Positions 32 to 30,969 of a stretch of DNA of 32,000 bases are shown here, piece after piece (positions within the stretch are counted from its first letter, which is position 1; each line of letters starts with the position of its first letter). The stretch lies in the NCBI GenBank assembly GCA_048886185.1, contig JBHLKY010000008.1:123047-155046 (forward strand), given 5' to 3'. The translations under genes and the position numbers were made by a program. The stretch comes from Candidatus Hermodarchaeota archaeon (GTDB lineage Archaea; Asgardarchaeota; Heimdallarchaeia; Hodarchaeales; Hodarchaeaceae). A model generated the notes under the pieces. That model saw nothing but the letters and a program-made list of their open reading frames with translations. It had not been told where the DNA came from and made no database searches.

Positions 32-1831
32 TTACTGGCGTCGTTTGCGGGACAATGCATATAGCGGAAGGATAGCTAATATAGCAAAAAGAATTTCGAA
101 TCCTGGTACACCATCACTTGGTTCTTCCCCAGGTCCACTTGTTTCTTCTGAAGATTCCCCATCAACAGCAGCCATTGCAGCTACAGCGGAATACGTGGGA
201 TCGTGGTAAATTTCTCCACCGTGCCAATCTGGAAACTCGGTTGCTGTAAAGAAGAGCATATCACCCAGATAATCATCAACGCTATCTGCTATACTTGTAA
301 GCTGCAATGATAATTGTTTGGCCACCCAATCTGTGAAAAGATATGCCATACCAAATTCAACAATGAAGTATCCTTTGCCAATATCTTTGGTATCCCAATT
401 ACCCCATTGGGTTTTATCAATAATATGGACTATAACTTCATGATCAGTTGTCGGATCGAATTCAGGCCACAGATCATCTAATCCGAGAAGTTTATAGGTG
501 TCTTTGTCCTCATAACGATGGAAATAATAGGTATTACCACCGGAATAGATGCTAAGATCTTTACTCGCAGCACCAGTATTATCATTGTAACCAGCAGTTA
601 TCTCTTCAGCTCCAAAAGTGTTTGTAGCAGTCGCTACTGTCAAACCAAATCCGTTTGCCATGTTCATCCGTAACTTGGCATCATCACCCACGTAAAATGC
701 CAGATCAGGTAGCCCAACTGTAACTTCCACTGGGATAGTGAGGCTGATATATGGAGAGAGGTCAATATTTTGCAATGTTGTAGGAACAGTAAATGTATAA
801 CTAGGAGCAGCAACGAAAGGATTATTGGCAAATGGACCAGTAGGAATAGTGTCCTCATTCACTACTAGGAAATTAGTTTCTCCAATATAATAGTGAGTTG
901 TTATACTGCCTTCGACATAAGTGTTTGCACCTTCAATGATGTCGGTTTCAAATTCATATTCAAATGCAAGATAATCGAGAACAGAGGCAGCTACAAGATC
1001 TTGGCCAAAAACAACTCCACCAGGAGCATCGTTGATGTAATTTGTGTTATCGAAAATATCGATTCCCCGAGGTTTCGCTTCAATATTTTGCCAGAGAACC
1101 AACATATTAGTATAGTTGATACCGAACTTGTAACCAGTTTCAGTCTCCGTGAAAGTAGGAGTGTAGTCAAAATTACCCACCCGATAGGGGGTCTTTCCTT
1201 CCAAGTTTTGATTTATGGCATAAATTAATTCTTGAAAGCTAAAAGTATAACCTAGGTAAAGATCATCAGAGAAATCCATTGTCCGATCATTAGGACTTGA
1301 TGAATAGGCTATCAGGGCCATAAAGTTATTGGTAACAAAAGTATCTTGTTCACCCATAAACTCGGGGGTCGTGAAGTGTTGTACTAGCTGCTGAAAAGGA
1401 GCAGTGGCGTTTATGTGGAAAATAGTCTCATCTAATGCGGGTCGCAATCCTGCATTGAAAAATTCATCATAAGCCTCAATAGCAGTTACTACATTCGCTT
1501 TTAACAGATCACGAAATGTGAGATCATGTTCATATTTCTCTAATGCAGAATAAGCGGTTTCAATCCCCGATTGATTCATGTATGCCATAAGGAATTGCCA
1601 GTCTTCGTTAGGATCAGCTGAGTCATCATCAACCTCAGCACTGCTATCAACTAGATCAGTAATTAGTAGGGGGTCTTTTGGTTTTGGATAGAGATCTACT
1701 TCGACTGCAAAGGATGTTTCGCTGAATGAATGCCCTACGAAGTCTGCTGTTGAAGCTCTGGCTGGTGTTGTGAGAATCAGAACAATCAGTAACGTTATTA
1801 CTGAAATTCCAATCATAAATTTCTTTTTCAT
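32..1831 (-). CDS. Secreted cell-surface (S-layer-like) glycoprotein with PGF-CTERM-type sorting signal, 599 aa
   Basis: N-terminal MKKKF plus hydrophobic signal peptide ending near ARA-S. Acidic body with N-x-S/T sequons (NQS, NAT, NYT). S/E/G/P linker, then VPGF, a TM helix and RKRRQ. SD-like AAGGTGA lies 9 nt before the ATG. Confidence 0.85.
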   Translation of the reverse strand: MKKKFMIGISVITLLIVLILTTPARASTADFVGHSFSETSFAVEVDLYPKPKDPLLITDLVDSSAEVDDDSADPNEDWQFLMAYMNQSGIETAYSALEKYEHDLTFRDLLKANVVTAIEAYDEFFNAGLRPALDETIFHINATAPFQQLVQHFTTPEFMGEQDTFVTNNFMALIAYSSSPNDRTMDFSDDLYLGYTFSFQELIYAINQNLEGKTPYRVGNFDYTPTFTETETGYKFGINYTNMLVLWQNIEAKPRGIDIFDNTNYINDAPGGVVFGQDLVAASVLDYLAFEYEFETDIIEGANTYVEGSITTHYYIGETNFLVVNEDTIPTGPFANNPFVAAPSYTFTVPTTLQNIDLSPYISLTIPVEVTVGLPDLAFYVGDDAKLRMNMANGFGLTVATATNTFGAEEITAGYNDNTGAASKDLSIYSGGNTYYFHRYEDKDTYKLLGLDDLWPEFDPTTDHEVIVHIIDKTQWGNWDTKDIGKGYFIVEFGMAYLFTDWVAKQLSLQLTSIADSVDDYLGDMLFFTATEFPDWHGGEIYHDPTYSAVAAMAAVDGESSEETSGPGEEPSDGVPGFEILFAILAILPLYALSRKRRQ

Positions 1832-2205: not shown

Positions 2206-3837
2206 CTAATTCCTTAAAAAGAAATCTCTACCCCTTTTAACACGTTTTAAGACCATACAGATAATTAATAATCCCAAAATTCCTGAAGCTATTGGAATAG
2301 AAGTAATTTCACTCAATTTCGTTTTTTCTGTCGGAAGTGAAGCGTTTTTAACTGCAAATTGCATTAAATGCAAAGAAAACTGAATACCTGACCACTCTTT
2401 AACTTGAAACTCTTGCGAATATCTTGCTGAAATCAAATCTAATCTGGATTTTTCGACCAATTCGTTGGTTCCCATTATAGACACATTAGGATCAGAAATA
2501 AATCGTTTCACGCTTTCCACAACCATTTCATTTAGTAAAAAGGTTTCTTGTAAAAATAATGGATTATTAGCAAATTTATTTCGCTGATTCAATGAAATTA
2601 CTTGTGTTTCAACGGGAATTAAGGATATTTTCTCAGTACTGTCTTCTTTTTGTATCGCAAAATTCCGACCCTTAACCAAAGCAGAGAATAATTTCTGTTG
2701 TTTATAAATTGCTGAAATCTCTTCTTTTACAGGAAAAGTACTTTCTGAAAGTCCGATTATGGTCTTGTTCTGGCCATCTACAACTATCTGAAGATTATTC
2801 ACTGGCTGTGTTCCATTCAATACACCAATATTTTGAGCTGTAATGAGAGAAAAAGATATCTCAGGGAATAGTTTTAGTCGATCCCGGATATTAGACCCAT
2901 GATACCAAGAAAATGTTTCATGAATTGGAATAAAATCCCTAAAATTATCTTGTATTTCGTACTCAAAAGCATTAATCCAAGTCTGATCAGGTGGTAGTTC
3001 CTCATTAATAATAAGATTCATCACATTCCCTATTGTAATTTCAGAGAGAGTTTCCACCCCTGAAGTTCCATAATGATCATATTTTCTTATTATGATTGTG
3101 AATATGATTTTTTCAAACTGAACTATCATTAAATGATCTGAAAGGTTAACAGCTGATTCAATAAAATCATCAAGGGCGATGCTATTGTTTTGAAAAAGAA
3201 AGGTGATGTTAGAAAAGGTAAGATCAATTTGAAGTTCGTTTGAAGAATCTTGAACCATAATTGAGGTTTTTACTGAAGAATCATAAGTGACATTTTGATT
3301 ATCTGGAATTAAAAACTCCAAAAAGTCTGATGGAACATTAGCATATCCATATTGGTAATCTTCAAGATCTAAACTGCTTTCATTTATTTTAAGTGCCATT
3401 CCGAGAAAGTCTTGGCTTAAGATAATATCTTCACCTGAAGGAAGTGAAAACTGGTGTAAATACTTAGAAAATGGAACTACTGATTGCCAACTAATTAAAT
3501 CGAGTATAATATCTTGAGTGCGATTTACTCGCTCTAATGCTAAAAATACGGAGTTTATTCCTTCATCCTCATGTCCTACCATATTTATAATATTATTATA
3601 ATCACTAGCATTGGCTAAGGAGGTTTGTTTTAATAGATCAGCCAATAGCCGTAATGATTGGTCATTAGGATCATAATCGAATTTAATTCCAAAAAGGTCT
3701 TTTTCAAAGTAAGAGTCAAGTTGAATGAATTGATATTCTGTTCTTCCAACACCTGATAATACACTTCCTAGGGCTATGAAGATTAATGAAATGCCTAATA
3801 AACATGTTTTCCATGATAAATGACTCTGGATTTGTAT
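2206..3837 (-). CDS. Diverged paralog of the surface protein, with signal peptide and C-terminal TM plus basic tail. About 543 aa if started at ATA 3837; the ORF track starts it at TTG 3645.
   Basis: The frame is open from 3837 and adds IQIQSHLSWKTCLLGISLIFIALGSVLSGVG, a signal-peptide-like segment. C-terminus IPIASGILGLLIICMVLKRVKRGR. Colinear motif similarity to 32..1831. Start position uncertain. Confidence 0.7.
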   Translation of the reverse strand: MQIQSHLSWKTCLLGISLIFIALGSVLSGVGRTEYQFIQLDSYFEKDLFGIKFDYDPNDQSLRLLADLLKQTSLANASDYNNIINMVGHEDEGINSVFLALERVNRTQDIILDLISWQSVVPFSKYLHQFSLPSGEDIILSQDFLGMALKINESSLDLEDYQYGYANVPSDFLEFLIPDNQNVTYDSSVKTSIMVQDSSNELQIDLTFSNITFLFQNNSIALDDFIESAVNLSDHLMIVQFEKIIFTIIIRKYDHYGTSGVETLSEITIGNVMNLIINEELPPDQTWINAFEYEIQDNFRDFIPIHETFSWYHGSNIRDRLKLFPEISFSLITAQNIGVLNGTQPVNNLQIVVDGQNKTIIGLSESTFPVKEEISAIYKQQKLFSALVKGRNFAIQKEDSTEKISLIPVETQVISLNQRNKFANNPLFLQETFLLNEMVVESVKRFISDPNVSIMGTNELVEKSRLDLISARYSQEFQVKEWSGIQFSLHLMQFAVKNASLPTEKTKLSEITSIPIASGILGLLIICMVLKRVKRGRDFFLRN

Positions 3838-5325
3838 TTAGGCCCCCTCCAAATGACTTTTTATCCAAGATAACCGCTTTGGACCAATTACATACCTAGA
3901 TCGCTTTTTTTCTTGAAGCGAGATAATGATTCCCAATTCAGTCAATCTTTTGATATGATGTTGAACACTAGAGTGATGAACATCAATTTCTTGGGAGATC
4001 TTTGACAATGATAATGGCTTTCTCTTTCTAATTAAGACACGACAGAGTTCTTTAGCAACGTCACTCTTTAATGCTAAGGCAATTTCTGATATATCAACAG
4101 ATTTTAAACCAACTAAATAAAAAATGTGATATTTACCAATTTTCTCGTGTGTTATTAAATGAAAATCGTCTAGTGCCTGCAAATGCCACAGTAAGGAAGA
4201 AATACCACACCCCACTTCTCGCTGGATTTCACGTAAATGAGCTCCTTGTTCCCCCTTCACCTCAAGGTAGTCTACAATCTCACTTCTTAGTTGATTTTCT
4301 AGGAGTTCAGTCTCGCTGATTCGTCGTCTTTGTGGTGAGTATGTAATATGAGCAATGAACAAAAAAACACTCATAAAAACTCCGACCACGATTTCACGAA
4401 TCTTAGAAACAACTCCTAGCTTTATTAGAAGAAAGATGGAAATTAAACCTGTGATCAGCACAAATCCAATTGCTGCTATCTGTTCCATTCCTCCTAGTTG
4501 TGGTGACACATTAGTTTCTGAGGGTAATGTACCTAGTGTCAGCCGTGCAAACTGACCTAATAGCTCAATCATATTTTCAGGTGAATCTAAATCCATTCCA
4601 AGTGATTTAAATTTAAGTTTTTTAACATCTGAAGCCATATCAATAGAAAAACTTCCTACAATTACATGAGTATCTACAGCCCATATTCCTGACTTCATAA
4701 CTCCCAAGACTGGTTCTTCTTCAGGTGGGATAATCTCTGCTAACATCTGTGTTTGGTTGTTTACCTCCACCCATGCCGTACTTCCTTTGAAATTAAAGGA
4801 GGTTGTACTTAGATTCAACAAAGATAATTGTTCTTCAGCTAAATTCAACTCGTGTTCCACATACGATCCATTAAAGGGGTATACTATTGGTGAATAAGCG
4901 GTAATTCCTAAATGGGCCAAATCTTGGAGAGGTGTTTCACTAAAATAGCGATTCAGTACAAACAATCCTCTTCCCATTTGTTTCCATTCATTTAAATCAC
5001 TGATGAATGTTAAATCAATAGATAAAGGGAATTCGTTAATCCACCAGATTGAAACAACGCTTTCATTTTCAAAAATGAATGAAGGATCAGTTTGTATTGT
5101 TGTAATATTATAATAGTCCGCTGCTCTCCCTGTTACTCCCACCATCTCTTGGCTTAACTTTTTATCCGTATCTGATCCGAAAAACACTGCAATTTTGCCT
5201 TTTTCAGACTCTTCATTTCCTATTACTCCCATAACTATAAAATTGCAACTTATTAGAATAATTTCTATTATTAAAATGATTATTGTTACTGTTCGCCTAT
5301 TAAATTTCAGTTTCGGCCAGTCCAT
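3838..5325 (-). CDS. Membrane-anchored transcriptional regulator: signal/TM, extracytoplasmic domain, TM, two ArsR-like winged HTH domains (COG3398-like)
   Basis: Hydrophobic N-terminal helix and TM IAAIGFVLITGLISIFLLI. wHTH1: LRSEIVDYL..GAHLREIQREVGCGISSLLWHLQAL. wHTH2: LSLSKISQEIDVHHSSVQHHIKRLTELGII. ATG at 5325 preferred over TTG at 5349. Confidence 0.75.
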   Translation of the reverse strand: MDWPKLKFNRRTVTIIILIIEIILISCNFIVMGVIGNEESEKGKIAVFFGSDTDKKLSQEMVGVTGRAADYYNITTIQTDPSFIFENESVVSIWWINEFPLSIDLTFISDLNEWKQMGRGLFVLNRYFSETPLQDLAHLGITAYSPIVYPFNGSYVEHELNLAEEQLSLLNLSTTSFNFKGSTAWVEVNNQTQMLAEIIPPEEEPVLGVMKSGIWAVDTHVIVGSFSIDMASDVKKLKFKSLGMDLDSPENMIELLGQFARLTLGTLPSETNVSPQLGGMEQIAAIGFVLITGLISIFLLIKLGVVSKIREIVVGVFMSVFLFIAHITYSPQRRRISETELLENQLRSEIVDYLEVKGEQGAHLREIQREVGCGISSLLWHLQALDDFHLITHEKIGKYHIFYLVGLKSVDISEIALALKSDVAKELCRVLIRKRKPLSLSKISQEIDVHHSSVQHHIKRLTELGIIISLQEKKRSRYVIGPKRLSWIKSHLEGA

Positions 5326-5468
5326 GAACTCGATACACCAATAATTCAATACCCCTATACAAATAAAAAAAATCTTTCTGAATTAACTTTTCACAATCAA
5401 AAAAAAGATAGAAATGGAAGACTGAGTTTATACTTGAAAATTTAATTTAAATTCAGAGGATGATTTTA

Positions 5469-6180: not shown

Positions 6181-6603
6181 ATGAAAATCCAAAGATTACT
6201 AAGAAAGAAACGTGCAGTCAGCCCTATTTTGGCTGCTATTTTACTGATTGGACTCGCCGTAGCGGCAGGTGCCGTTCTATTCATTGTAGTTTTACCCCTG
6301 ATTTCTGAACCAGGCGGCTCGCTAGTATTTGATGAAACAGCGACGAAATTAACCAATAAAACAGCAAAAATAGCGCTTAAAAATGAAAAATTAAGTGAAG
6401 CTGCATCAATTACAAATATTACAATAATAGGTCCTGATAGAGCCAACTTCGCTTTTGTTGCATTCAGTATCAATGCAGGAAGTGGAAAAGTCAAGGATTA
6501 TACATTCGATGAGGAATTATCAGCTGGAAAATACACAATCACAGTCACATTCGATATTGGAGATGCAACCGATCAAACAATATCAATAGATTTGACTATA
6601 TGA
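6181..6603 (+). CDS. Archaeal type IV pilin/archaellin-like protein with class III signal peptide
   Basis: RKKRA|VSPILAAILLIGLAVAAGAVLF matches the PibD/FlaK-processed pilin N-terminus; a small beta-rich domain follows. Confidence 0.88.
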   Translation: MKIQRLLRKKRAVSPILAAILLIGLAVAAGAVLFIVVLPLISEPGGSLVFDETATKLTNKTAKIALKNEKLSEAASITNITIIGPDRANFAFVAFSINAGSGKVKDYTFDEELSAGKYTITVTFDIGDATDQTISIDLTI

Positions 6604-6742: not shown

Positions 6743-7219
6743 TCAATTCAATCGTGAATCTTCTGCTTTACTCCGTACATACTTGTTGATAACCATTTTT
6801 CCATCTGTTAAGATTCTACGCATATTTATACTAAATTTTTTCCAATAATCAATTAATGTCTTTCGCTGTTCAACAGTTTCCACCATTTCAGTATTGAGAA
6901 AAAAAGAGATCTGATAACCTTCCTCAGGCTCACGAATCACCTTTAAACGTGCTCCCGCATTCCGCCATAATTCGTTTCGTATTCTGTCAAAAATAAATTC
7001 TTCTACTGGATCATTAAAGTGAAGTGTAAGGGAAAGAATTGCAGAGTTTCCCTGTCTTATTAATTGTCCTTCCTCAAAAGTAATAATTTCGCGAGAAACC
7101 CATTCACAGCCCTCACATTCAGGACAAAGAACACAAATAGGTTCAACTCCAGTTTTATCGCATGATACAGAGCGTAATATCAGATTAGATTCTAACAACG
7201 GCAATGAATTCTCAACCAA
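6743..7219 (-). CDS. ARPC4 (Arp2/3 complex p20)-like protein; eukaryotic signature protein
   Basis: NSAILSL..NDPVEE..REPEEGYQISFFL..LIDY..KMVINKYVRSKAE aligns by eye with eukaryotic ARPC4 as recalled: NSVRVSI..ADEIEK..RKPVEGYDISFLI..LVDF..KLSVNARARIVAE. Length similar (158 aa vs about 168 aa). Confidence 0.8.
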   Translation of the reverse strand: MVENSLPLLESNLILRSVSCDKTGVEPICVLCPECEGCEWVSREIITFEEGQLIRQGNSAILSLTLHFNDPVEEFIFDRIRNELWRNAGARLKVIREPEEGYQISFFLNTEMVETVEQRKTLIDYWKKFSINMRRILTDGKMVINKYVRSKAEDSRLN

Positions 7220-7256: not shown

Positions 7257-7268
7257 TTTATAATAAAT
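7257..7268 (-). promoter_or_regulatory. TATA-like element upstream of the ARPC4-like gene
   Basis: Minus strand TTTATTATAAAG about 40 nt upstream of TTG 7219. Confidence 0.4.
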
Positions 7269-7312: not shown

Positions 7313-7741
7313 TTAAAATTCGCGTAATTTGAGCATTTTGGTTTTTGTTGAAGTCAGCAAATAATGCATTAACCCAAGCTTAACTTCTGATTTTGTGATC
7401 AGTACAAGAATGGTACTTCCTACCCTTGAAATTAAACCTAAACCCAGAGGAGTCTGAACATGAATGTAGTCTATTTTATTTCCTAAATTAAGTTGAACAC
7501 AAGCCCCAGCAAAAGTACTGACAATTCCAGCAACCATTGCAGATACTAATGTTTCAACCTCATCAGAAATAGGAGCTGTTCGTGCAGACATTATTGGAAA
7601 GCCCTCATCACTTACCAACAGTGCTTGCTGAACCCCTTGAACAGCACCAAGTTCATCTAAAACTTTCTGGACTTTTTCTGTTGAGGAGGTCTCACTATCT
7701 TTATCAATTGCTATATGACTATAGGTTACCATTTTTTTCAC
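7313..7741 (-). CDS. Roadblock/LC7 (MglB/LAMTOR-like) domain protein
   Basis: VLDEL..QGVQQALLVSDEGFPIMS..SAMVAGI..helix, then beta strands ILVLIT and C-terminal LGLMHYLL: the typical roadblock pattern. Start may be ATG 7732. Confidence 0.88.
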   Translation of the reverse strand: MKKMVTYSHIAIDKDSETSSTEKVQKVLDELGAVQGVQQALLVSDEGFPIMSARTAPISDEVETLVSAMVAGIVSTFAGACVQLNLGNKIDYIHVQTPLGLGLISRVGSTILVLITKSEVKLGLMHYLLTSTKTKMLKLREF

Positions 7742-7880: not shown

Positions 7881-8063
7881 ATGAGTGAAAACATCCGAAT
7901 GCAAAGATGTAATCCTTGTCAAGTTGCTGTCATGCCTAGTCAACATGGAACAACACGTTTTCCATGTCCATCGTGCGGAATGATCCCTATAATTCGTTGT
8001 GAGCGGTGTCGAAAGTTGGGGAATAGATATACCTGTCCTAATTGTGGATTCACTGGACCTTAA
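7881..8063 (+). CDS. Small Zn-ribbon protein (COG2888/HVO_2753-like)
   Basis: Four CxxC motifs, ends YTCPNCGFTGP; sits in its usual position upstream of aEF-1beta. Confidence 0.9.
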   Translation: MSENIRMQRCNPCQVAVMPSQHGTTRFPCPSCGMIPIIRCERCRKLGNRYTCPNCGFTGP

Positions 8064-8127: not shown

Positions 8128-8421
8128 ATGAAAATGGCAAACGTGTTATCGATTTTGAAAGTAATTCCGACTTCCCCCGAAGTAAATCGTGATGAGCTTG
8201 TTTCTCGTGCACAAACAGAAGTAAGAGAAGGTTTAGATTTAGAAATTTTAAAGAAGGAAGAGGAGCCACTTTTTTTTGGATTATATGCAATTAAACTCTT
8301 CGTAAAGACAGCTGACTCTGATGAAGGAACTGAAACACTTCAGAAATTTGAAGATCGCCTTATCGCTTTGGAAGAAGTTGATAATTGCGAAATTGAAGTG
8401 CAAACAATAATTGACTATTAG
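8128..8421 (+). CDS. ef1b: Translation elongation factor aEF-1beta
   Basis: MANVLSILKVIPTSPEVN..EEEPLFFGLYAIKL..VDNCEI. Confidence 0.92.
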   Translation: MKMANVLSILKVIPTSPEVNRDELVSRAQTEVREGLDLEILKKEEEPLFFGLYAIKLFVKTADSDEGTETLQKFEDRLIALEEVDNCEIEVQTIIDY

Positions 8422-8573: not shown

Positions 8574-10781
8574 ATGATACAAAAGTTGAGAAATTTGACA
8601 AAAGAAGTTGTATTAAAGGTTGCTGAGGCAAGACAACGCGATGTTGGACGTGGAAAAATCCGCATGGATGATATCAATATGCGGGAAATTGGTATCACGA
8701 CTGGTGACGTTGTTGAGATTCGGGGCCGACAAAAAACAGGAGCAATAGCTTGGCCTGCCTACATAGAAGATCAAGGGGCAGGTATTGTACGAATGGATGG
8801 AATTATTCGAAGAAACGCGAAAGTCTCATTAGAAGAAAATGTTCGCATCCGCAAGGCTCAGATAAAAGTTGCTAAAACCGTTAATATTGCACCAACTCGT
8901 CAAATTTCCCTTGATTATGGATTTGAAGCCTTTGTCAAACGCAAACTATTAGGATACCCAGTTTCTAAGAATGATACAGTACTCATCCCTATTCTAGGTA
9001 GGTCAATACCATTTGTTGTGAATTCGACAACCCCTACAGATATTGTACTAATAACTGACACTACCAAACTTAATGTTTCAGAAAAGCCTGTTTCAGAAAC
9101 TGAAACTGGGATGCCAGGGGTTAGTTATGAAGATATTGGAGGCTTGTCAGATGCGATTCAACGAATTCGCGAAATGGTTGAGCTACCATTGAAACACCCT
9201 GAACTATTCAAAAAATTGGGAATTGATCCACCAAAAGGAGTTTTATTACACGGTCCGCCTGGAACTGGAAAAACACTCATAGCCAAAGCTGTTGCCAATG
9301 AATCTGAGGCACATTTCATTCCAATTCAAGGACCTGAGATTATGTCTAAATTTTATGGGGAATCAGAAGCGAGATTACGTGAAATTTTTAAAGAAGCGGA
9401 AGATAATGCTCCTAGTATCGTTTTCATTGATGAAATCGATGCCATTGCTCCTAAACGAGAAGATGTAACTGGAGAAGTTGAAAGACGCGTCGTTGCACAA
9501 ATTCTAGCCTTAATGGATGGATTAGAAAGTCGAGGAGAGACAATTGTCATTGGAGCGACAAATCGTCCTAATGCAGTAGACCCTGCATTACGTCGTCCAG
9601 GTCGTTTTGATCGTGAAATAGAAATCGGGGTTCCTGACAAAAATGAGCGTTTGGAAATACTTCAGATTCACACTAGAAGAATGCCAGGAATAGAAGATGT
9701 TGATACAGAAAAGCTGGCAGTAATAACTCATGGATTTGTTGGAGCTGATCTCGCTGCTTTAGGTCGTGAAGCTGCAATGAAGAAGTTGCGAGAAATCTTA
9801 CCTGAAATCAACTTAAGTGAGGATACCATCCCACCAACAGTTCTTGATAACCTAAAGGTTGAAGATCGACATTTTGAGGATGCATTAAAAGAGATTCATC
9901 CCTCTGCAATTAGAGAGGTATTTATTGAAGTACCAAATGTGAAATGGGAAAATATAGGGGGTATGGATTCCGTTAAACAAGAATTGATTGAAATTGTCGA
10001 GTGGCCGTTAAAACAAAAGGAAAGTTTCCAACGTTTGGGTATTAACCCTCCCCGAGCTGTTCTTTTATTCGGCGCACCTGGAACAGGAAAGACATTGTTA
10101 GCAAAAGCTTTGGCAACAGAGAGTCACGTGAATTTTATTAGCGTTAAAGGTCCCGAACTCCTTTCAAAATGGGTTGGAGAGAGTGAAAAAGCCGTTAGGG
10201 AAGTATTTCGCAAAGCACGAACCGCTTCTCCTGCACTTGTCTTCTTCGATGAAATTGATGCCGTTGCTACCCGAAGAGGATCTGGTGACTCATCTGGAGT
10301 CAATGAACGTGTAATTAGTCAGCTTTTAACTGAATTAGCGGGGATAGAACCTTTAAGAGATGTAGTGGTTCTTGCAGCGACAAACCGCCCCGATATGATT
10401 GATCCTGCGCTCCTCCGACCAGGAAGATTCGATCGAGTTGTTTATATTCCTCCTCCTGACGAGGAAAGTCGGAAATTGATATTAGAGATTCATACAAAGA
10501 ATATGCCATTAGCTGAAAATATTGATCTTAATCGATTAGCTAAAGAGACAGAGTTTTATGTAGGAGCGGATCTTGAAGCCATTTGCCGTGAAGCTGGCAT
10601 GATAGCTCTTCGAGAAGGACTTGATTCTAATATTGTTGAATGGCGTCATTTTGAGGCCTCACTCTCAAGAGTTCATTCGTCGTGCACTCCTGAAATGATG
10701 AAATGGTACGAAAATCAAGAATCCCAGTTCAGACGGAGAATAGCGATTGGTACACAGCCCACAGTACCCCTATTTGGATAA
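8574..10781 (+). CDS. cdc48: CDC48/VCP/p97 AAA+ ATPase
   Basis: N-domain ([15 protein letters not shown]). D1 has GPPGTGKT and FIDEID; D2 has GAPGTGKT and FFDEID. Both carry the [19 protein letters not shown]. Confidence 0.98.
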
Positions 10782-12264: not shown

Positions 12265-12552
12265 TCAACCTCGTATATTTATTATAAAGGGTGGACAAAG
12301 TTGATCAGCTTCTTTGATACCGTGCTTAACTGCCTCTTCAGCTATCTCTTGCACATTATACTTTGAAAAAGGAGATAATTCTAAAAATAATTCAATATTA
12401 ACGATTAACTCTCCTTTTTCTGTTGTTTCAAGGCTAATATCAATCAAATCTTGATTTAGATCTTCACCAATTTTATCTGTAAGAAATTGTTGAATCTTAA
12501 TATACAATTGGTCAAGTATATCCTCCATATCGTCAGTTGTCAATAAGTTCAC
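12265..12552 (-). CDS. DUF3194-like acidic protein
   Basis: Pattern DISLE..LIVNIELFL..QEIAEEAV and the usual position after prefoldin beta. Confidence 0.65.
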   Translation of the reverse strand: MNLLTTDDMEDILDQLYIKIQQFLTDKIGEDLNQDLIDISLETTEKGELIVNIELFLELSPFSKYNVQEIAEEAVKHGIKEADQLCPPFIINIRG

Positions 12553-12582
12553 ACAGTTTCTTCATGCAACTTTAAAAATAGT

Positions 12583-12966
12583 CTAATTAGTTGGTTCTAA
12601 ATCACCTAATTCCTCACTTAATCGAGTTTGTAACTCCTCTAAACGCTTAGTATTTTGTGCTTCCTGAGAAGAAAAGCTTTTTTGCTTAAGTTCGAGTAAT
12701 TCGGCTCGTTCTGTTAATTCTTGCAGAACATCACTAACCTTTTTGGGGAACATAACTGATCCTACAGTTTTCCATACCTCATTATTGGAATCTAGCTTTT
12801 GTAGTTCTTTTTTAGTCATTTCAATTTCTGAAAGTGTTCTAGAAATCTCTGCTTTTTGAATTCGTAAGTTCTGAACTGTTTGTTCGAGCTGTCGGAATCG
12901 TAAAATCAGTTCTTGTTTGGCAGGGGATAGTTCGCGATAGGCCATTTTTTCAACCACTAATTTCAA
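12583..12966 (-). CDS. pfdB: Prefoldin beta subunit
   Basis: Two coiled coils around the beta hairpin EVWKTVGSVMF. Confidence 0.93.
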   Translation of the reverse strand: MKLVVEKMAYRELSPAKQELILRFRQLEQTVQNLRIQKAEISRTLSEIEMTKKELQKLDSNNEVWKTVGSVMFPKKVSDVLQELTERAELLELKQKSFSSQEAQNTKRLEELQTRLSEELGDLEPTN

Positions 12967-13011
12967 ATATTTTGTTTAAGTATTTCCTCTTCAGTTATTG
13001 AAATCTAAATA

Positions 13012-13278
13012 TCAGTTAAAAGTTTGTTTTGACAAAGTCATTAGGGCTCTTGTAGTACTGGAGATCCATCGTAAAATTGATCCTATGGTTGCCTTTGCTG
13101 CATTTACATCATAAGCAGTGATATTTATGATTATTATTTGAGCTTCTAAAGCTATTGATGCTGTAGATCGCTCAAAACGCTGGTCCTGAATCTCGGGGAA
13201 AACAGATGAAAAAATAACTCGAGCTTGATCCTCAGAATCATAACGGATGGTGAAACAAATTTTAAGTGTGCTATTCAT
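13012..13278 (-). CDS. pcc1: KEOPS complex subunit Pcc1
   Basis: ARVIFSSVFPE..RS..IINITAYDVNAAKATIGSILRWI; conserved position in the superoperon. Confidence 0.85.
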   Translation of the reverse strand: MNSTLKICFTIRYDSEDQARVIFSSVFPEIQDQRFERSTASIALEAQIIIINITAYDVNAAKATIGSILRWISSTTRALMTLSKQTFN

Positions 13279-13813
13279 TGTTTACACATTCTGAAGAGAC
13301 GTGAATGGTAAAGAGATGTAGGGATTTCGTTGAGTTCTGTTGAACTGCGTGGCCAATAAGAGAGTTAAATTTATCTTTTCCAAAACTAATAACCAATTTC
13401 TTCTTCGAATGAACATTGTTTGAATCTGGAATGATCTGATGGAAAAAATCTGTAATTTGATCCTTGAATAGCTTATTTATATCTTCAGAAAAATTGATGC
13501 AGATTCGCTCAATATTTATTCGATATTTCTTGCTATGTTTACGTAATGAAACTATATTAGTCAACCTAATTGTAGCATCTATTAATTGAGGTTGGTTTCT
13601 TATTGAATATGCTTTAACTAAAATTGCGTTATTCTCATCAGATTCTTGAAGGATAAGTAAGTTACCTATCTTTTTATTCCAGCAATAAGTAAATAATCTG
13701 CTTAAACTCAATGTACCTCGATTCATTCTTTGGGAGTTGGGAAAAGAGAGGGAGATGACCCTACTCACACGACGTAAGCGATGATTAGGATTCCTAGAGG
13801 TTGTTATCAACAT
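13271..13813 (-). CDS. Brix-domain (Imp4-like) ribosome biogenesis protein
   Basis: MLITTSRNPNHRLRR..RMNRGTLSL N-terminal Brix motif. Confidence 0.85.
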   Translation of the reverse strand: MLITTSRNPNHRLRRVSRVISLSFPNSQRMNRGTLSLSRLFTYCWNKKIGNLLILQESDENNAILVKAYSIRNQPQLIDATIRLTNIVSLRKHSKKYRINIERICINFSEDINKLFKDQITDFFHQIIPDSNNVHSKKKLVISFGKDKFNSLIGHAVQQNSTKSLHLFTIHVSSECVNNE

Positions 13814-13883
13814 AAATTTTTTGACCCCTCACTCTCCATTCATAGAATTTGGTTTTATGATTTAGTAATAATTGGAAACAATA

Positions 13884-14159
13884 TTAGGATTCAGATTGAC
13901 CAGATAAACGCTTTGCTGTTCGAAGGGCTATTTTTCCTCCTGGAGTCTCTGGAGACCATGAACCACCTGCGAAACGAAAACCACAGAATTTACATTCCCA
14001 AATACCAATAGATACTCGGTGAACCTTCATGGTGTTACATGAAGGGCAAGGGTGTTTTATTTTTAAACCACTTTCAATTTTGCGAATCCTCTTCCGGACG
14101 CTAGCACCATATCGCGTACCAAACCTACCAGTGGATCCTACTTTTTTAGTTCGTCCCAT
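13884..14159 (-). CDS. rpl37ae: Ribosomal protein eL43 (L37Ae)
   Basis: KKVGSTGRFGTRYGASVRK, CPSC..IWECKFCG. Confidence 0.97.
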   Translation of the reverse strand: MGRTKKVGSTGRFGTRYGASVRKRIRKIESGLKIKHPCPSCNTMKVHRVSIGIWECKFCGFRFAGGSWSPETPGGKIALRTAKRLSGQSES

Positions 14160-14308
14160 TGTATTATCGGAGCTCCTTCTATTATCTGATCAATTTTTAG
14201 GAAAATGTTCTAACAATCATTAGGGGGTGCATAATGCTTAATATCAGTTTTTATCTGATATAGAAACGCCTTATGGTTCATATTTATTGTTATCGTCTCA
14301 AGATGTCA

Positions 14309-15163
14309 TCAAAAATCAAACTGAAACATTTCATTATGTTCAGAAACTTGTGATTTTTGCTCAATAAGTTCGATTAATTCTTTCGCACGACTTGATGCAG
14401 CTTCCAAGATAGCCAAAATTTCCTTTTCTAAGAAAACTCCCGACTCTCCTTTCTGCATTGAACATATCAAACCTTTATCAGTTATTGCTACAGAAAACCG
14501 AGTGTGTTTACCCCGATCTTCTAGCAGGTTAGGATCATAAATAATTGAGTCATCAATTTTGACATAAGTTAGACTCGTTACGTATCCATTTCTTGGAAGG
14601 GGTTCTGTCTCATCTAATAAGGTGACTTCTTCTGTTTCTTCATCAATTAAGACCTTATTTAATCGTGTATTTGCAAGGGCTGCCATTGCAGCAAGAGCTG
14701 ATGCATCAATCAAATTACCTCCATCATCAAGCGTGTATATATCAACAAAGAGAATCCAAACTGTTTTTCCAGGGACAACACATAATTTGGGATCTTTCAT
14801 TGGAATAACTTTACTTTCACGAATTCCACGATCAACAATACGAGCCATTTCAATCGCTTCGGGGCCTGGGGGCCCACTTTCACGCGAGGGGGAAGAAATA
14901 GGAGATAATTCAAGGTTTACAGTAATTACACCATCATTAGGTGTATCTGGAAATGGAGCCCCTAATTGAGCTTTTACACCAGCTAACACAACAGTTTCTC
15001 CCAATTTAACCATCGCTGAACCTTCAGCCTTTTTAATGACATTAGGTATAATTTGAATTGGACGACCCTCCCAAAAACCTCTATTATCAATACGTTCCCC
15101 CTTTACAAGTAAGTCAGTTAAATATTTTTTTTCTAAGTTACTAACGATTTCATCCGAGCGCAT
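14309..15163 (-). CDS. rrp42: Exosome subunit Rrp42
   Basis: RIDNRGFWEGR, KAEGSAMVKLG, PFPDTPNDG, DDGGNLIDA. Confidence 0.97.
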   Translation of the reverse strand: MRSDEIVSNLEKKYLTDLLVKGERIDNRGFWEGRPIQIIPNVIKKAEGSAMVKLGETVVLAGVKAQLGAPFPDTPNDGVITVNLELSPISSPSRESGPPGPEAIEMARIVDRGIRESKVIPMKDPKLCVVPGKTVWILFVDIYTLDDGGNLIDASALAAMAALANTRLNKVLIDEETEEVTLLDETEPLPRNGYVTSLTYVKIDDSIIYDPNLLEDRGKHTRFSVAITDKGLICSMQKGESGVFLEKEILAILEAASSRAKELIELIEQKSQVSEHNEMFQFDF

Positions 15164-15174
15164 AATCTTCTCTC

Positions 15175-15939
15175 CTATTCTTCTTCCTCACTTATTTCAT
15201 CTATGGGTTCTGCGATTTGAGTGTATTTTGCTAATAAAGCATTCCTCTGCATCTCATAAATATGGTTTATAGCAATTTTTGAAAGTTTAAGCCCCTCCTC
15301 TACTTCTTTTAAAGTAAATTGACCATCAGATTGAAGAAGTGTCAGTTCTCCAGTAGTAGGTATCATTGCGATTGGCATATCGCCCTCACCTTCCTTATCC
15401 TCAATATCAGAGAGATCAACAACAATCTTCCCATCAACCTTCCCAACAGCACATGCAGTAACCATACCTCTCATTGGAATACCAGCATCAGCTAATCCTA
15501 ATGAAGCTGCAGTCAGTGCTGCACAACGAGTACCTCCATCTGCATCTAATACAGTAACGAATATATCAATTGCTCCATTAGGAAATTTCTCTAAAAATAA
15601 TATTGTATTTAGCGATTCAGTTAAAATTTTACTAAGTTCATACTCTCTACGACGAGGAGCAGGACTTTTTCGCTCTCCAACTGAAAAAGTTGCTAGACGA
15701 TATTCAACCCGTAAAATTGCTTTATCTGGTTGAGCAAGATGTTTTGGATGTAGTTCTCTTGGACCATAAATGGCACATATTATTTTATTATTTCCCCAAG
15801 TTAGATAACAACTTCCATCAGCTCTATCTAGAACTCCAGTCTTCATAGTTATTGTTCTCAATTCATGAAGTCCGCGACCATCTAATCGTTTTCCATCTTC
15901 TAATAAAAGAGAGGGTTTTTCTTCATTCATTTTCTTCAC
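15175..15939 (-). CDS. rrp41: Exosome subunit Rrp41
   Basis: RLDGRGLHELR, ADGSCYL, GPRELHPKH, ADGGTRCAA. Start may be ATG 15930. Confidence 0.97.
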   Translation of the reverse strand: MKKMNEEKPSLLLEDGKRLDGRGLHELRTITMKTGVLDRADGSCYLTWGNNKIICAIYGPRELHPKHLAQPDKAILRVEYRLATFSVGERKSPAPRRREYELSKILTESLNTILFLEKFPNGAIDIFVTVLDADGGTRCAALTAASLGLADAGIPMRGMVTACAVGKVDGKIVVDLSDIEDKEGEGDMPIAMIPTTGELTLLQSDGQFTLKEVEEGLKLSKIAINHIYEMQRNALLAKYTQIAEPIDEISEEEE

Positions 15940-16663
15940 TTCTTTCAGATAATTTGATTCTTTCTGTTTCTAAAAATTCGCGAATTCGGTCAGTTAATCC
16001 ACTAGTGTGAGCTTCTAGTTCGATTTTTCGGATCGCACGCTCTACCAAGTTTTCAATCTCAGGATTAAAAGCTTTGATGACTATTCGGCCATTTTGTCCA
16101 ATAGTAAGTTGAGTATTGGTCATATTTTTTAATAATTGAATCATACTTCCTTTTTTTCCTATGATTCGTGGGATTTTTACAGGATCGACTTCAATCAAAT
16201 GGCCATTGTTAATTTTATGGAGACCCCGTCCCTGCAATGTGAGAACAGGATCACGCAGTCGGTCAAAATAAGTAATTTGAGCTTTTATTATATCACCTGT
16301 GTTTAAAATTCGATCAAGACTTTCCCTAAGAGCATCAAAATCCCTATCAATGACGTTACTAACACGAAGTGTTCCAACATAAGGTCCTCGGATATCCACA
16401 TTCCAAGAAGTGAGTCCCACTTTTGTGATTTTACCAATAACTATATCTCCTTCTAATGGAATATAACAACCCTCTAATGGAACTACTCCAACTCTATCTT
16501 TTCTAACTTGCACAAGCCCAATCATTGACGCGTAAATCTCAATCTCACTATTGACCTTCCGACGAAAAACTCCCCCACCTACTTTTAATCCAGAACCACG
16601 AGCTAGGATTTCACCAGGAATAACAAGTTGGTTTCTGGTCACTAATATCGACATTTTATCCAC
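15923..16663 (-). CDS. rrp4: Exosome RNA-binding subunit Rrp4
   Basis: LVIPGE, YIPLEGDIVIGKI (S1 domain), KIPRIIGKKGSMI (KH domain), GQNGRI. Confidence 0.96.
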   Translation of the reverse strand: MDKMSILVTRNQLVIPGEILARGSGLKVGGGVFRRKVNSEIEIYASMIGLVQVRKDRVGVVPLEGCYIPLEGDIVIGKITKVGLTSWNVDIRGPYVGTLRVSNVIDRDFDALRESLDRILNTGDIIKAQITYFDRLRDPVLTLQGRGLHKINNGHLIEVDPVKIPRIIGKKGSMIQLLKNMTNTQLTIGQNGRIVIKAFNPEIENLVERAIRKIELEAHTSGLTDRIREFLETERIKLSERSEENE

Positions 16664-16710
16664 TTCATTTTAAAATCTATTATCAAAGTATCATTATAAT
16701 AATTTGAAAG

Positions 16711-17445
16711 TTATAAGCGAATTCTTTCTATAATTTTGATCTCAGCACGACCCTTCGTCATGCTTTGAACTCTCTCCATGAATTCCCCTTGAATTCCAGC
16801 TGCAACAGTCACTACTGCAATCCAATGGCCATCATTCTGCCATTCATCTTTTTCAATTTGAGCGTCACGCTTAATTTCGCCATAAGCTTTTCCTGTGAAT
16901 TCTGGTGGAATTTTTATTGCAAGTTTAACAGTCTCCATGCTGATGGGGAGAACTCGCCTTAATTCTTGAATTATATCCTTGAGCTGACTCTCAGCAGGTG
17001 ATGATGGATCGATCATTATTTTTGCTTCTTTCATTGCATTCTCAATACGCAAAGGAGGATGTGGTGTCCGTGTTTTAGGATTAATACAGGTCTTTGCTAG
17101 TAACGTTATAATTTGCCTGCGCTTTTTTTCAAAAAATTCTTGTCTTTGTTCAGCTGTTAGATTAAGCTCACCCTTCGTAAGGATCTTTTCTGCAATTATA
17201 AGAGGATCTACTGTTTCGAAACAGTGCATAAGAACTTCATCAGGAGCTTTTTCTCCTTTACTAGCATTTTGAAAGATTTCGTCCATTTCTAAAATATCAG
17301 TAATGCCGATTGTATCATCCAATAGTCCCATTTTATATTTGAGAGCCAATTCTGGGTTAACTATGATTTCAAATCTATTTCCCTGGAATTTTGCACGTAC
17401 AACTGATTTTCCTGTTAAGTCAACCCTCCGAGCATCTCTTAGCAT
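16711..17445 (-). CDS. sdo1: Ribosome maturation factor SBDS/Sdo1
   Basis: FEIIV.P, IFQNASKGEKA, INPKTRTPHPPLRIENAM. Confidence 0.96.
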   Translation of the reverse strand: MLRDARRVDLTGKSVVRAKFQGNRFEIIVNPELALKYKMGLLDDTIGITDILEMDEIFQNASKGEKAPDEVLMHCFETVDPLIIAEKILTKGELNLTAEQRQEFFEKKRRQIITLLAKTCINPKTRTPHPPLRIENAMKEAKIMIDPSSPAESQLKDIIQELRRVLPISMETVKLAIKIPPEFTGKAYGEIKRDAQIEKDEWQNDGHWIAVVTVAAGIQGEFMERVQSMTKGRAEIKIIERIRL

Positions 17446-17456
17446 CCATAACTCTC

Positions 17457-30758: not shown

Positions 30759-30969
30759 TCTTACTCTTTTTCATCTACTTGAAAAATAGTGATTGAATTC
30801 TCTCAAGGAACATTGTTCTAGATATTCAGCTCATACCTATTAATGAATTATTCTTTTTGACTTTCTATGAAAAATATCCCTTTCATTTCATCATATTATG
30901 AGAATGACATTAGTTCATTTATTTTTTTTGTCGGATAAATTATTAAGACAAAGAAGGAAGCTATTTTTT

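What the first reader, a model, noticed from the sequence alone, without database searches (positions are those of the whole stretch)
6743..7219. ARPC4-like protein: an archaeal homolog of an Arp2/3 complex core subunit
Seen: R-E-P-E-E-G-Y-Q-I-S-F-F-L, an upstream NS..S strand, D-x-x-E helix start and a long C-terminal helix (K..IN..R..AE). Established: ARPC4 and the two halves of ARPC2 share this fold, and their long C-terminal helices form the scaffold that binds the mother actin filament. As I recall, an ARPC4-like protein has been reported in Heimdallarchaeote LC_3, so the family is not new, but its function is uncharacterised. Inference: a single-domain ancestor that may homodimerise to mimic ARPC2/ARPC4 and bind the side of Asgard actin filaments.
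Basis: partly seen in the sequence, partly recalled or inferred. Interest (0 to 1): 0.85.

Follow-up and report, generated by a model that had tools for sequence, protein, structure and literature searches.

The report
Stand-alone archaeal ARPC4-like protein with cysteine cluster
This is a real, conserved gene of a Heimdall-group (Hodarchaeales-like) Asgard archaeon whose protein is a true relative of ARPC4, a core piece of the eukaryotic actin-branching Arp2/3 machine. The family is already catalogued. In this genome it stands alone without the rest of the machine, carries a probable metal-binding cysteine cluster, and is predicted to pair with itself.

Summary
Observation confirmed. The ORF at 6743..7219 (-) exists and every quoted motif is in it. 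Homologues indicate the true start is the TTG at 7204, giving 153 aa.

**Identity.** Pfam ARPC4 scores 35.6 bits against a cut-off of 22.2. The family profile hits PDB ARPC4 at E 4e-12. The AlphaFold model (pLDDT 90) superposes on bovine ARPC4 over 149 of 153 residues (Z 15.4; next best 5.5).

**Prior knowledge.** 'Arp2/3 subunit 4' homologues have been listed for Asgard archaea, and I found no functional study. This scan has also noted the family before on other DNA (31 notes, at least 13 genomes).

- The genome (96% complete) has one actin, a profilin-like gene and gelsolin-domain genes, but no detectable ARPC2, ARPC3, ARPC5 or second actin/Arp. The protein therefore cannot work in a canonical Arp2/3 complex.
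- The N-terminal third, outside the Pfam match, carries a conserved cysteine cluster with a clade-wise ligand swap, most likely a structural zinc site.
- A symmetric homodimer through antiparallel C-terminal helices is predicted (score 0.71, best control 0.00), echoing the ARPC2/ARPC4 pair. That pass may reflect likeness to solved complexes.
- The family is single-copy and patchy, in 95 of 400 Asgard genomes.

Actin binding remains untested.

The parts
6743..7219 (-). ARPC4-like gene. The maximal ORF is 158 codons from TTG 7219. The most likely start is TTG 7204 (153 aa). The stop is TGA at 6743-6745.
   Evidence: ORF list and translation. Homologues start at the 7204-equivalent codon. Some relatives have an open frame of exactly 153 codons.
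7106..7162 (-). N-terminal cysteine cluster C20-x8-C29-x2-C32-x2-C35-x2-C38 in ORF numbering (C15/24/27/30/33 in the 153-aa protein). Probable metal (Zn) site. It lies outside the Pfam ARPC4 match.
   Evidence: C15, C24 and C33 are present in 50-51 of 51 aligned family members. In 132 members, C27 alternates with D/E/Q27 plus H30 plus C32. Model confidence is lower here, pLDDT 72-82.
6761..7048 (-). Region matched by the Pfam ARPC4 profile: residues 58-153 of the ORF against profile positions 68-162 of 167. It comprises a three-stranded sheet, helix 1, the PEEGYQISFF strand and the C-terminal helix.
   Evidence: Secondary structure of the model.
6755..6874 (-). Long C-terminal helix (model residues 111-150), carrying the K-x3-N-x3-R motif shared with eukaryotic ARPC4. 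It is the main element of the predicted symmetric dimer interface.
   Evidence: DSSP of the model. Alignment to 1k8k_F. Interface residues 116-153 plus 67-87, with antiparallel contacts 131-146 and 138-138/142.
7257..7267 (-). TATA-box-like A/T element (TTTATTATAAA), about 40-55 nt upstream of the two candidate starts. Possible own promoter in the 93-nt gap after the Roadblock gene.
   Evidence: Read directly from the sequence. Inference only: no transcript data exist and no archaeal promoter model was run.

Best explanation
The gene encodes a stand-alone, single-domain homologue of ARPC4 (p20-Arc).

Shown here:
- It belongs to the ARPC4 family by sequence profile and by full-length predicted fold.
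- It is single-copy and conserved.
- The genome lacks detectable ARPC2, ARPC3, ARPC5 and any second actin or Arp gene. It therefore does not act inside a canonical seven-subunit Arp2/3 complex.

Inferred with moderate support:
- An N-terminal cluster of four or more Cys/His ligands binds a structural metal, most likely zinc. This stabilises the N-terminal third, which has little regular secondary structure.
- The protein forms a two-fold symmetric homodimer. Helix 1 (residues 67-87) and the long C-terminal helix (116-153) pack antiparallel against the same helices of the partner. This reproduces the antiparallel ARPC2/ARPC4 helix pair that forms the backbone of Arp2/3.

Inferred by analogy only: the dimer binds the side of filaments of the genome's single actin, as isolated ARPC2/ARPC4 binds F-actin in eukaryotes. 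It would act as a side-binder, tether or bundler rather than a nucleator.

My odds: ARPC4 homologue about 0.97; not part of an Arp2/3 complex about 0.9; metal site about 0.7; homodimer about 0.6; F-actin side binding about 0.3. The confidence given is for the whole chain apart from the last step being only 'most likely among the alternatives'.
For: **Homology**
- Pfam PF05856 at E 9e-9, 35.6 bits against a cut-off of 22.2, residues 58-153.
- phmmer to 1k8k_F at E 4e-3. The profile of 51 family members hits ARPC4 chains at E 4e-12, against ARPC2 at E 0.85.

**Fold**
- AF2 model with pLDDT 90.2 and pTM 0.81.
- Foldseek: the top 9 hits are all ARPC4 chains, TM 0.67-0.71, followed by ARPC2 chains at TM about 0.5.
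- VIA-align: 1k8k_F at Z 15.4, rmsd 2.9 A, 149 aligned, model 1-153 on chain 11-167. The next hit scores Z 5.5.

**No complex partners in a 96%-complete genome**
- PF04045 gives no match and PF04062 none. PF04699 gives only 13 bits inside a 1278-aa frame.
- There is a single Actin-family match. tblastn with that actin finds nothing else below E 4.
- An actin system is present: actin, a profilin-like gene at 24.2 bits, and gelsolin domains.

**Metal site**
- C15, C24 and C33 are near-invariant.
- Ligand patterns in 132 members are CCDHCC (41), CCC-[D/E]C (50) and CCCC.C (13). Loss of C27 is accompanied by H30 plus C32.

**Dimer**
- Complex prediction score 0.71 (runs 0.69, 0.75, 0.71) against a best control of 0.00.
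- At least 91% of contacts are shared between runs, and partner pLDDT is at least 88.
- The mark was reached by 20 of 30 proteins solved as pairs and 1 of 23 solved as single chains.
- The interface holds family-invariant F70, I71, I75, L79, D134, G135, N140 and R144.

**Precedent**
- ARPC2 and ARPC4 C-terminal helices are antiparallel.
- Isolated ARPC2/ARPC4 binds F-actin with micromolar affinity and provides 60% of the mother-filament interface (PMC9894260).
Against: - No direct evidence exists for actin binding.
- No actin, profilin or gelsolin gene lies within 1.5-5 kb of the ARPC4-like gene in about 50 loci from many lineages.
- Whole Asgard families have no match to the ARPC4-like profile (0 of 135, 0 of 19, 0 of 14, 0 of 12). 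If these have actin, as the literature states for all Asgard phyla, the protein is not an obligatory actin partner. Their actin genes were not checked here.
- The dimer pass may be memory of solved ARPC2/ARPC4 structures, and it used my own alignment.
Zn versus Fe-S cannot be told from sequence.
- The eukaryotic N-terminus, which touches the mother filament, is replaced here by the Cys region.
- Sequence searches cannot exclude a fold-level ARPC2 equivalent.
Confidence: 0.4

Rival explanations
1. The protein is a homodimeric ARPC4-fold adaptor that has nothing to do with actin. It would be a small partner-binding platform of the 'secretion-chaperone-like' fold, working with regulatory modules such as Roadblock/longin or V4R/Bet3-type domains, for example in small-GTPase or trafficking-like regulation. 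The link to actin would have arisen only in the eukaryotic stem.
For: - A Roadblock/LC7 gene (Pfam E 1.9e-10) lies 93 nt upstream on the same strand. It keeps this position in 18 of the 20 same-genus loci examined.
- In small-genome (about 1.4 Mb), probably Odinarchaeial, genomes the ARPC4-like domain is fused behind an ATC_hydrolase/V4R-type domain.
- The next-best structural neighbours are type III secretion chaperones at Z 4-5.5. These are dimeric peptide-binding adaptors.
- There is no actin-related gene context, and the family is absent from whole Asgard families that the literature credits with actin.
Against: - The Roadblock adjacency is not seen outside the genus. The next family has an unrelated helical gene in that position, and other lineages have unrelated neighbours.
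- Fusions are lineage-specific.
- The only characterised relatives, ARPC4 and ARPC2, are actin-filament binders.
- Z around 5 to the chaperones is fold-level only.
Confidence: 0.25
2. The cysteine cluster is a redox-active or Fe-S site rather than a structural zinc site. The protein would then be a redox- or metal-responsive switch whose ARPC4-fold output changes with the state of the cluster.
For: - The window's clade has a CxxCxxCxxC arrangement reminiscent of ferredoxin-type motifs, plus a fifth upstream Cys.
- Some relatives have six cysteines.
- The organism comes from sediment metagenomes and has many Fe-S proteins nearby, for example the radical SAM genes at 22.5-24.9 kb.
Against: - The largest clade replaces one Cys by Asp/Glu and adds His. 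This is typical of Zn sites and unusual for 4Fe-4S clusters.
- There is no Pfam Fer4 hit.
- Ligand spacing varies between clades.
Confidence: 0.1
3. The protein is a subunit of a divergent, so far unrecognised Arp2/3-like complex whose other subunits are too diverged to detect by sequence.
For: - Sequence searches cannot exclude fold-level homologues.
- The genome is a 75-contig assembly, 96% complete.
- Some papers speak loosely of 'ARP2/3 proteins' in Hodarchaeales (PMC12077186).
Against: - Only one actin-fold gene of the actin family was detectable. A nucleating complex needs two Arps.
- No ARPC2, ARPC3 or ARPC5 signal was found.
- No conserved neighbours suggest co-subunits.
Confidence: 0.05

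Closest known systems
Eukaryotic ARPC4 (p20-Arc, Pfam PF05856; e.g. chain F of 1K8K, 4XEI, 3DWL, 8E9B)
   Same: - Same fold over the whole length: Z 15.4, rmsd 2.9 A, 149 residues, TM 0.71.
- About 20-22% identity.
- Shared motifs: N-S strand, D-x-x-E helix cap, P-x-EGY-x-ISF strand, and K-x3-N-x3-R on the long C-terminal helix.
- Similar size, 153 aa against about 168 aa.
   Different: - There are no partner subunits in the genome, so no Arp2/3 complex.
- The N-terminal third carries a conserved Cys/His cluster that the Pfam profile does not cover, and that I do not recall in eukaryotic ARPC4 (from memory).
- It is predicted to pair with itself rather than with ARPC2.
- Its function is untested.
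Eukaryotic ARPC2 (p34-Arc, PF04045)
   Same: - Its two globular domains share the fold (Foldseek TM about 0.5, E 1e-4 to 1e-3).
- Its long C-terminal helix pairs antiparallel with that of ARPC4. This is the geometry predicted here for the homodimer.
   Different: - ARPC2 has two domains and about 300 aa.
- The sequence signal is only marginal (E 0.85 with the family profile).
- No ARPC2 gene was detected in this genome.
Asgard 'ARP2/3 complex subunit 4' eukaryotic-signature-protein family (cited in PMC7522288, PMC7444086; listed in the 2026 structural-cluster preprint 10.64898/2026.10.28.762692)
   Same: This gene is a member. It shares 55-87% identity with many Heimdall-group and Hodarchaeales proteins that already carry a PF05856 label in public data.
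   Different: Nothing categorical. NCBI records still call the proteins 'hypothetical'. I found no description in the searchable literature of the cysteine cluster, the predicted homodimer, or the absence of other subunits in the same genome.
Fused ARPC4-like proteins of 373-394 aa in small-genome Asgard lineages (Odinarchaeia-like; P0086, L046)
   Same: They share the ARPC4-like core and the four-cysteine motif (C-x9-C-x2-C-x3-5-C).
   Different: Those proteins add an N-terminal ATC_hydrolase/V4R-type domain and a C-terminal zinc-ribbon-like tail. The window's protein is the bare core.
Type III secretion class I chaperones (e.g. ExsC 3KXY, InvB 2FM8, SicP 1JYO)
   Same: They share the general alpha/beta 'secretion chaperone-like' fold and are small dimeric adaptors.
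   Different: The similarity is fold-level only: Z 4-5.5, 5-13% identity, about 100 residues. They lack the long C-terminal helix and the cysteine cluster, and there is no sequence signal.

Membership tests
ARPC4 / p20-Arc (PF05856) | Sequence matches the family profile above the curated threshold | tested here: met
   35.6 bits against a gathering cut-off of 22.2, E 9e-9, covering profile positions 68-162 of 167. The whole-genome scan gives 34.5 bits. The family profile against PDB ARPC4 gives E 4e-12.
ARPC4 / p20-Arc (PF05856) | Single alpha/beta globular domain followed by a long C-terminal helix, superposable on solved ARPC4 | tested here: met
   The model has pLDDT 90.2. 1k8k_F scores Z 15.4, rmsd 2.9 A, 149 of 153 residues. 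Foldseek TM is 0.67-0.71 to nine ARPC4 chains.
ARPC4 / p20-Arc (PF05856) | N-terminal third homologous in sequence to eukaryotic ARPC4 | tested here: inconclusive
   The Pfam and PDB sequence alignments start only at residue 45-58. The structural alignment nevertheless spans residues 1-153. The archaeal region carries a Cys cluster. No eukaryotic sequences were retrieved for a profile-profile test.
Arp2/3 complex (seven-subunit actin nucleator) | Co-occurrence with ARPC2, the obligate helix-pairing partner | tested here: not met
   PF04045 has no match at E<=1 in the 96%-complete genome. The control genomes also gave no signal, so the search's sensitivity is unproven. The A2 family profile finds only one ARPC4-fold gene.
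Arp2/3 complex (seven-subunit actin nucleator) | Presence of two actin-related proteins (Arp2, Arp3) and of ARPC3/ARPC5 | tested here: not met
   There is one Actin-family match only. tblastn with it finds no paralogue below E 4. PF04062 gives no match. PF04699 gives only 13 bits at E 0.28. ARPC1, a generic WD40 protein, was not tested.
Arp2/3 complex (seven-subunit actin nucleator) | Binding to the side of an actin filament | not testable with these tools
   This needs co-sedimentation, TIRF or cryo-EM, or at least a multimer prediction with a filament.
ARPC2/ARPC4-type helix-paired dimer | Antiparallel pairing of the long C-terminal helices | tested here: inconclusive
   Predicted only. Score 0.71 against a best control of 0.00, with symmetric contacts 131-146, 138-138 and 135-142. 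The geometry matches the description in PMC9894260. The pass may stem from likeness to solved complexes, and no superposition was possible.
Structural zinc-binding (Cys4 / Cys3His) module | Four conserved metal ligands with compensatory replacement | tested here: met
   C15, C24 and C33 are present in 50-51 of 51 sequences. In 132 members the fourth ligand is either C27, or H30/C32 when residue 27 is D/E/Q.
Structural zinc-binding (Cys4 / Cys3His) module | Ligands cluster in space and bind metal | not testable with these tools
   Model coordinates are not exposed. Metal content needs ICP-MS or a PAR assay.

The most novel reading that the evidence does not exclude
The mother-filament clamp of Arp2/3, the ARPC2/ARPC4 pair, began as a symmetric, zinc-stabilised homodimer of one ARPC4-like protein. 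This homodimer would bind the sides of Asgard actin filaments in the complete absence of Arps. Filament side-binding would then predate branching nucleation, and ARPC2 would have arisen later by duplication and fusion of this unit. This Hodarchaeales-like protein would be a living example of that ancestral state.
Probability: 0.22. Interest if true: 0.8.

Novelty: new member of a known kind. Interest (0 to 1): 0.45.

Why it matters
Arp2/3-driven branched actin underlies phagocytosis, lamellipodia and endocytosis, and its origin is part of the eukaryogenesis question. Heimdall-group archaea, including Hodarchaeales, have been proposed as the closest relatives of eukaryotes.

This gene shows what the pre-eukaryotic state of one core subunit looks like. 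It is a lone protein, probably metal-stabilised and probably self-pairing, in a genome that has one actin, a profilin-like gene and gelsolin-domain genes but no Arps.

That makes a concrete question testable with ordinary biochemistry: did the ARPC2/ARPC4 scaffold exist as an actin side-binder before nucleation evolved?

The identification itself is not new. The value lies in the specific, testable structural predictions: the metal site, the dimer interface residues, and the absence of partners.

Tried and rejected
1. **Roadblock link.** The upstream Roadblock/LC7 gene keeps its place in 18 of the 20 same-genus loci examined. In the next family (Heimdallarchaeaceae-like, six loci) that position holds an unrelated helical gene of 146-151 aa. 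Other lineages have ferredoxin, TFS, ThiS or FtsX-like neighbours. I rejected it as a conserved partnership.
2. **The helical neighbour.** It has no Pfam hit and no homologue in this genome. The AF2 model (pLDDT 86) gave only non-specific helical-bundle matches at Z<=8 and no Foldseek hit below E 0.2. It is not recognisably ARPC3 or ARPC5.
3. **Actin-related genes nearby.** None were found within the roughly 50 fetched loci.
4. **Expression.** No RNA holder was listed; only sediment-metagenome DNA runs, which may be the source.
5. **Eukaryotic sequences.** A profile search of the 5.8-billion-protein set returned only archaeal members among the best 120. No eukaryotic ARPC4 sequences came to hand, so I made no phylogeny and no profile-profile alignment of the N-terminus.
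6. **Mother-filament contacts.** The supplement of PMC9894260 is not held. ARPC4 residues that touch the mother filament could not be mapped.
7. **Cys-Cys distances.** The distances and a superposition of the dimer on ARPC2/ARPC4 could not be computed.
8. **P0088.** This 1524-aa protein matched six times to residues 9-52. The matches are to a repeated E-E-I-C-x-A-C-P-E-C-E-G-C motif in an otherwise alanine/glutamate-rich repetitive protein. I treated this as a motif-level match, not a family member.
9. **Chance ORF or artefact.** Rejected on conservation.

Full report
**1. The observation**

- The minus strand carries an ORF from TTG 7219 to the TGA stop at 6743-6745, 158 codons.
- 73 homologues at E<=1e-28 were found among public proteins. 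Most are 152-153 aa and begin M-P-L-x-E-S, five codons inside this ORF.
- The window's own product is on record as 153 aa (P0002). Some same-genus relatives have an open frame of exactly 153 codons.
- The probable start is therefore the TTG at 7204.
- A TATA-like TTTATTATAAA lies at 7267-7257 in the 93-nt gap after the upstream gene. That is read from the sequence only.

**2. Identity**

- Pfam ARPC4 (PF05856) matches residues 58-153 at E 9e-9, 35.6 bits against a cut-off of 22.2.
- phmmer finds bovine and fission-yeast ARPC4 chains at E 4e-3 to 2e-2.
- A profile of 51 family members (alignment A2) raises this to E 4e-12, covering positions 45-152 against ARPC4 residues 56-163. ARPC2 reaches only E 0.85.
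- An AlphaFold2 model built on A2 has mean pLDDT 90.2 and pTM 0.81. It shows a three-stranded sheet, helix 66-81, strand 99-104 and a 40-residue C-terminal helix.
- In Foldseek, ARPC4 chains take ranks 1-9 (TM 0.67-0.71, E down to 8e-8), followed by ARPC2 chains (TM about 0.5).
- The independent VIA-align search gives 1k8k_F at Z 15.4, rmsd 2.9 A, 149 residues, model 1-153 on chain 11-167. The runner-up scores Z 5.5; it and most of the following hits are type III secretion chaperones.

**3. What the genome has around it**

- The window is contig 8 of a 4.84-Mb, 75-contig assembly rated 96% complete.
- Names attached to close homologues place it among Heimdall-group archaea, Hodarchaeales/'Hodarchaeota'.
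- The genome holds one ARPC4-like gene and one actin (442 bits). tblastn with that actin finds no paralogue below E 4.
- It also holds a profilin-like gene just under threshold (24.2 against 25 bits) and several gelsolin-domain genes.
- ARPC2 and ARPC3 give no match, and ARPC5 gives only 13 bits inside a 1278-aa frame.
- The protein therefore cannot be a subunit of a canonical Arp2/3 complex here. I file it as a member of the ARPC4 protein family, not of the Arp2/3 system.

**4. Distribution**

- With the family profile, 95 of 400 Asgard genomes have a match, almost always one per genome.
- The match is present in 20 of 21 other genomes of the window's family (all of the same genus), and in 27/31, 10/12 and 3/3 genomes of three other families of the same class. 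It is also present in several families elsewhere in the phylum.
- It is absent from families sampled 0/135, 0/19, 0/14 and 0/12.
- Small-genome lineages and one other family carry 373-394-aa fused forms. Where Pfam detects anything more, it is an ATC_hydrolase/V4R-type N-terminal domain.
- Public records call all of these 'hypothetical protein', although the PF05856 label is precomputed for nearly all.

**5. The N-terminal cysteine cluster**

- Residues 1-45 lie outside the sequence match to ARPC4 and have little regular secondary structure in the model. pLDDT is 72-86 over residues 11-40.
- C15, C24 and C33 (153-aa numbering) are present in 50-51 of 51 aligned members.
- In 132 members the six-position ligand pattern falls into three classes:
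  - C-C-C-gap-[D/E]-C, four cysteines, 50 members.
  - C-C-C-C-x-C, the window's clade with five cysteines, 13 members.
  - C-C-[D/E/Q]-H-C-C, about 45 full-length members plus 8 that lack the first position.
- Whenever C27 is lost, H30 and C32 appear.
- Such compensated ligand exchange is what a tetrahedral metal site would produce. Zinc is the most economical reading because of the His/Asp variants and the lack of any Fer4 signal. An Fe-S or redox role is not excluded.
- Earlier notes of this scan on other genomes mention the same 'four-cysteine knuckle'. The counts here are my own.

**6. Self-association**

- Two copies were folded with controls.
- The scores were 0.69, 0.75 and 0.71 (median 0.71), with a best control of 0.00. 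At least 91% of contacts were shared between runs and partner pLDDT was at least 88.
- The mark was reached by 20 of 30 proteins solved as pairs and by 1 of 23 solved as single chains.
- The interface is symmetric. It comprises helix 1 (67-87) and the C-terminal helix (116-153).
- Contacts such as 131-146, 135-142 and 138-138 imply antiparallel helices around a two-fold axis.
- Family-invariant F70, I71, I75, L79, D134, G135, N140 and R144 lie in the interface.
- In Arp2/3, the ARPC2 and ARPC4 C-terminal helices are antiparallel and bury about 2,300 A^2. The isolated heterodimer binds F-actin with micromolar affinity and supplies 60% of the mother-filament interface (PMC9894260).
- The prediction therefore reproduces the known pair with one protein playing both roles.
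- Because a like complex is solved, the pass may reflect likeness and not prove binding. It also used my own alignment.

**7. Context**

- The gene sits in a housekeeping region that includes:
  - a HIT hydrolase and a pilin-like gene;
  - Roadblock/LC7, an HVO_2753-type zinc finger, aEF-1beta and CDC48;
  - the Pcc1 / prefoldin / L37ae / exosome / SBDS / proteasome-alpha cluster;
  - aIF5A, LonB and FtsZ.
- The Roadblock gene directly upstream is kept in 18 of the 20 same-genus loci examined.
- More distant families have unrelated neighbours.
- No actin-system gene is nearby in any of about 50 loci.
- Gene context thus supports neither the actin reading nor any other.

**8. Literature**

- Asgard genomes are stated to encode 'Arp2/3 complex subunit 4' (PMC7522288).
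- ARPC4 is among the catalogue-matched Asgard-eukaryote structural clusters in a 2026 preprint.
- A 2025 note mentions putative ARP2/3 homologues in Hodarchaeales (PMC12077186).
- Searches for ARPC4 with Asgard or archaea found no functional or structural study.
- The library lacks most subscription-journal papers, so this absence is not proof.

**9. Verdict**

- It is a new member of a known, uncharacterised family, not a discovery of the family.
- The added points are the stand-alone status in a genome with a single actin, the ligand-swapping cysteine cluster, and the predicted ARPC2/ARPC4-like symmetric dimer. These are concrete and testable.
- Actin-filament side binding is the most likely function by analogy, at about 0.3. 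It is unproven.
- An actin-independent adaptor role is the main rival.

Noticed in passing
window 7313-7741 (-): A stand-alone Roadblock/LC7 gene (Pfam E 1.9e-10) lies 93 nt upstream of the ARPC4-like gene on the same strand, with no GTPase next to it. The pair is kept in 18 of the 20 same-genus loci examined but not in more distant families.
   Followed up: partly
L033:4470-4910 (+) and equivalents in L034, L035, L036, L050, L051: In a second family of the same class (names point to Heimdallarchaeaceae), a conserved all-helical gene of 146-151 aa sits directly upstream of the ARPC4-like gene on the same strand. It has no Pfam hit and no homologue in this window's genome. The fold search gave only non-specific helical-bundle matches (Z<=8).
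   Followed up: yes
L046:4524-5657 (+), L039:4404-5525 (-), protein P0086: ARPC4-like domains are embedded in proteins of 373-394 aa in small-genome Asgard lineages. P0086 and L046 have an ATC_hydrolase/V4R-type N-terminal domain. P0087 (435 aa) has a long low-complexity tail.
   Followed up: partly
window 6181-6603 (+): A 140-aa ORF has an N-terminal hydrophobic segment resembling an archaeal type IV pilin signal (Pilin_N E 0.75, DUF2178 E 0.007, both below threshold). It is convergent with the ARPC4-like gene. It is conserved in the genus but diverges fast (36-80% identity).
   Followed up: no
window 7881-8063 (+), 8128-8421 (+), 8574-10781 (+): An HVO_2753-type small zinc-finger protein, aEF-1beta and a CDC48/p97 AAA ATPase form a co-oriented block divergent from the Roadblock gene. 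The zinc finger is 85-100% identical across the genus.
   Followed up: no
window 32-1831 (-) and 2206-3645 (-): Two large ORFs (599 and 479 aa) have no Pfam match at E<=0.001. The next ORF, 3838-5349 (-), has only a C-terminal HTH_20/ArsR-type domain.
   Followed up: no
window 12265-18179 (-): The classical archaeal exosome/proteasome superoperon is present. It comprises DUF3194, prefoldin beta, Pcc1, an unassigned 180-aa ORF, L37ae, two RNase PH subunits, Rrp4, SBDS and proteasome alpha.
   Followed up: no
window 30898-31998 (+), runs off the window: An FtsZ gene (Tubulin domain E 1.5e-47 plus FtsZ_C) lies at the window's end. Further upstream, on the opposite strand, are a PRS2-type AAA ATPase and an RMKL-like methyltransferase.
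   Followed up: no
protein P0088 (1524 aa, from the representative search): A long alanine/glutamate-rich repetitive protein carries six copies of an E-E-I-C-x-A-C-P-E-C-E-G-C motif that matches the window protein's cysteine cluster almost letter for letter. Its origin and meaning are unknown.
   Followed up: no
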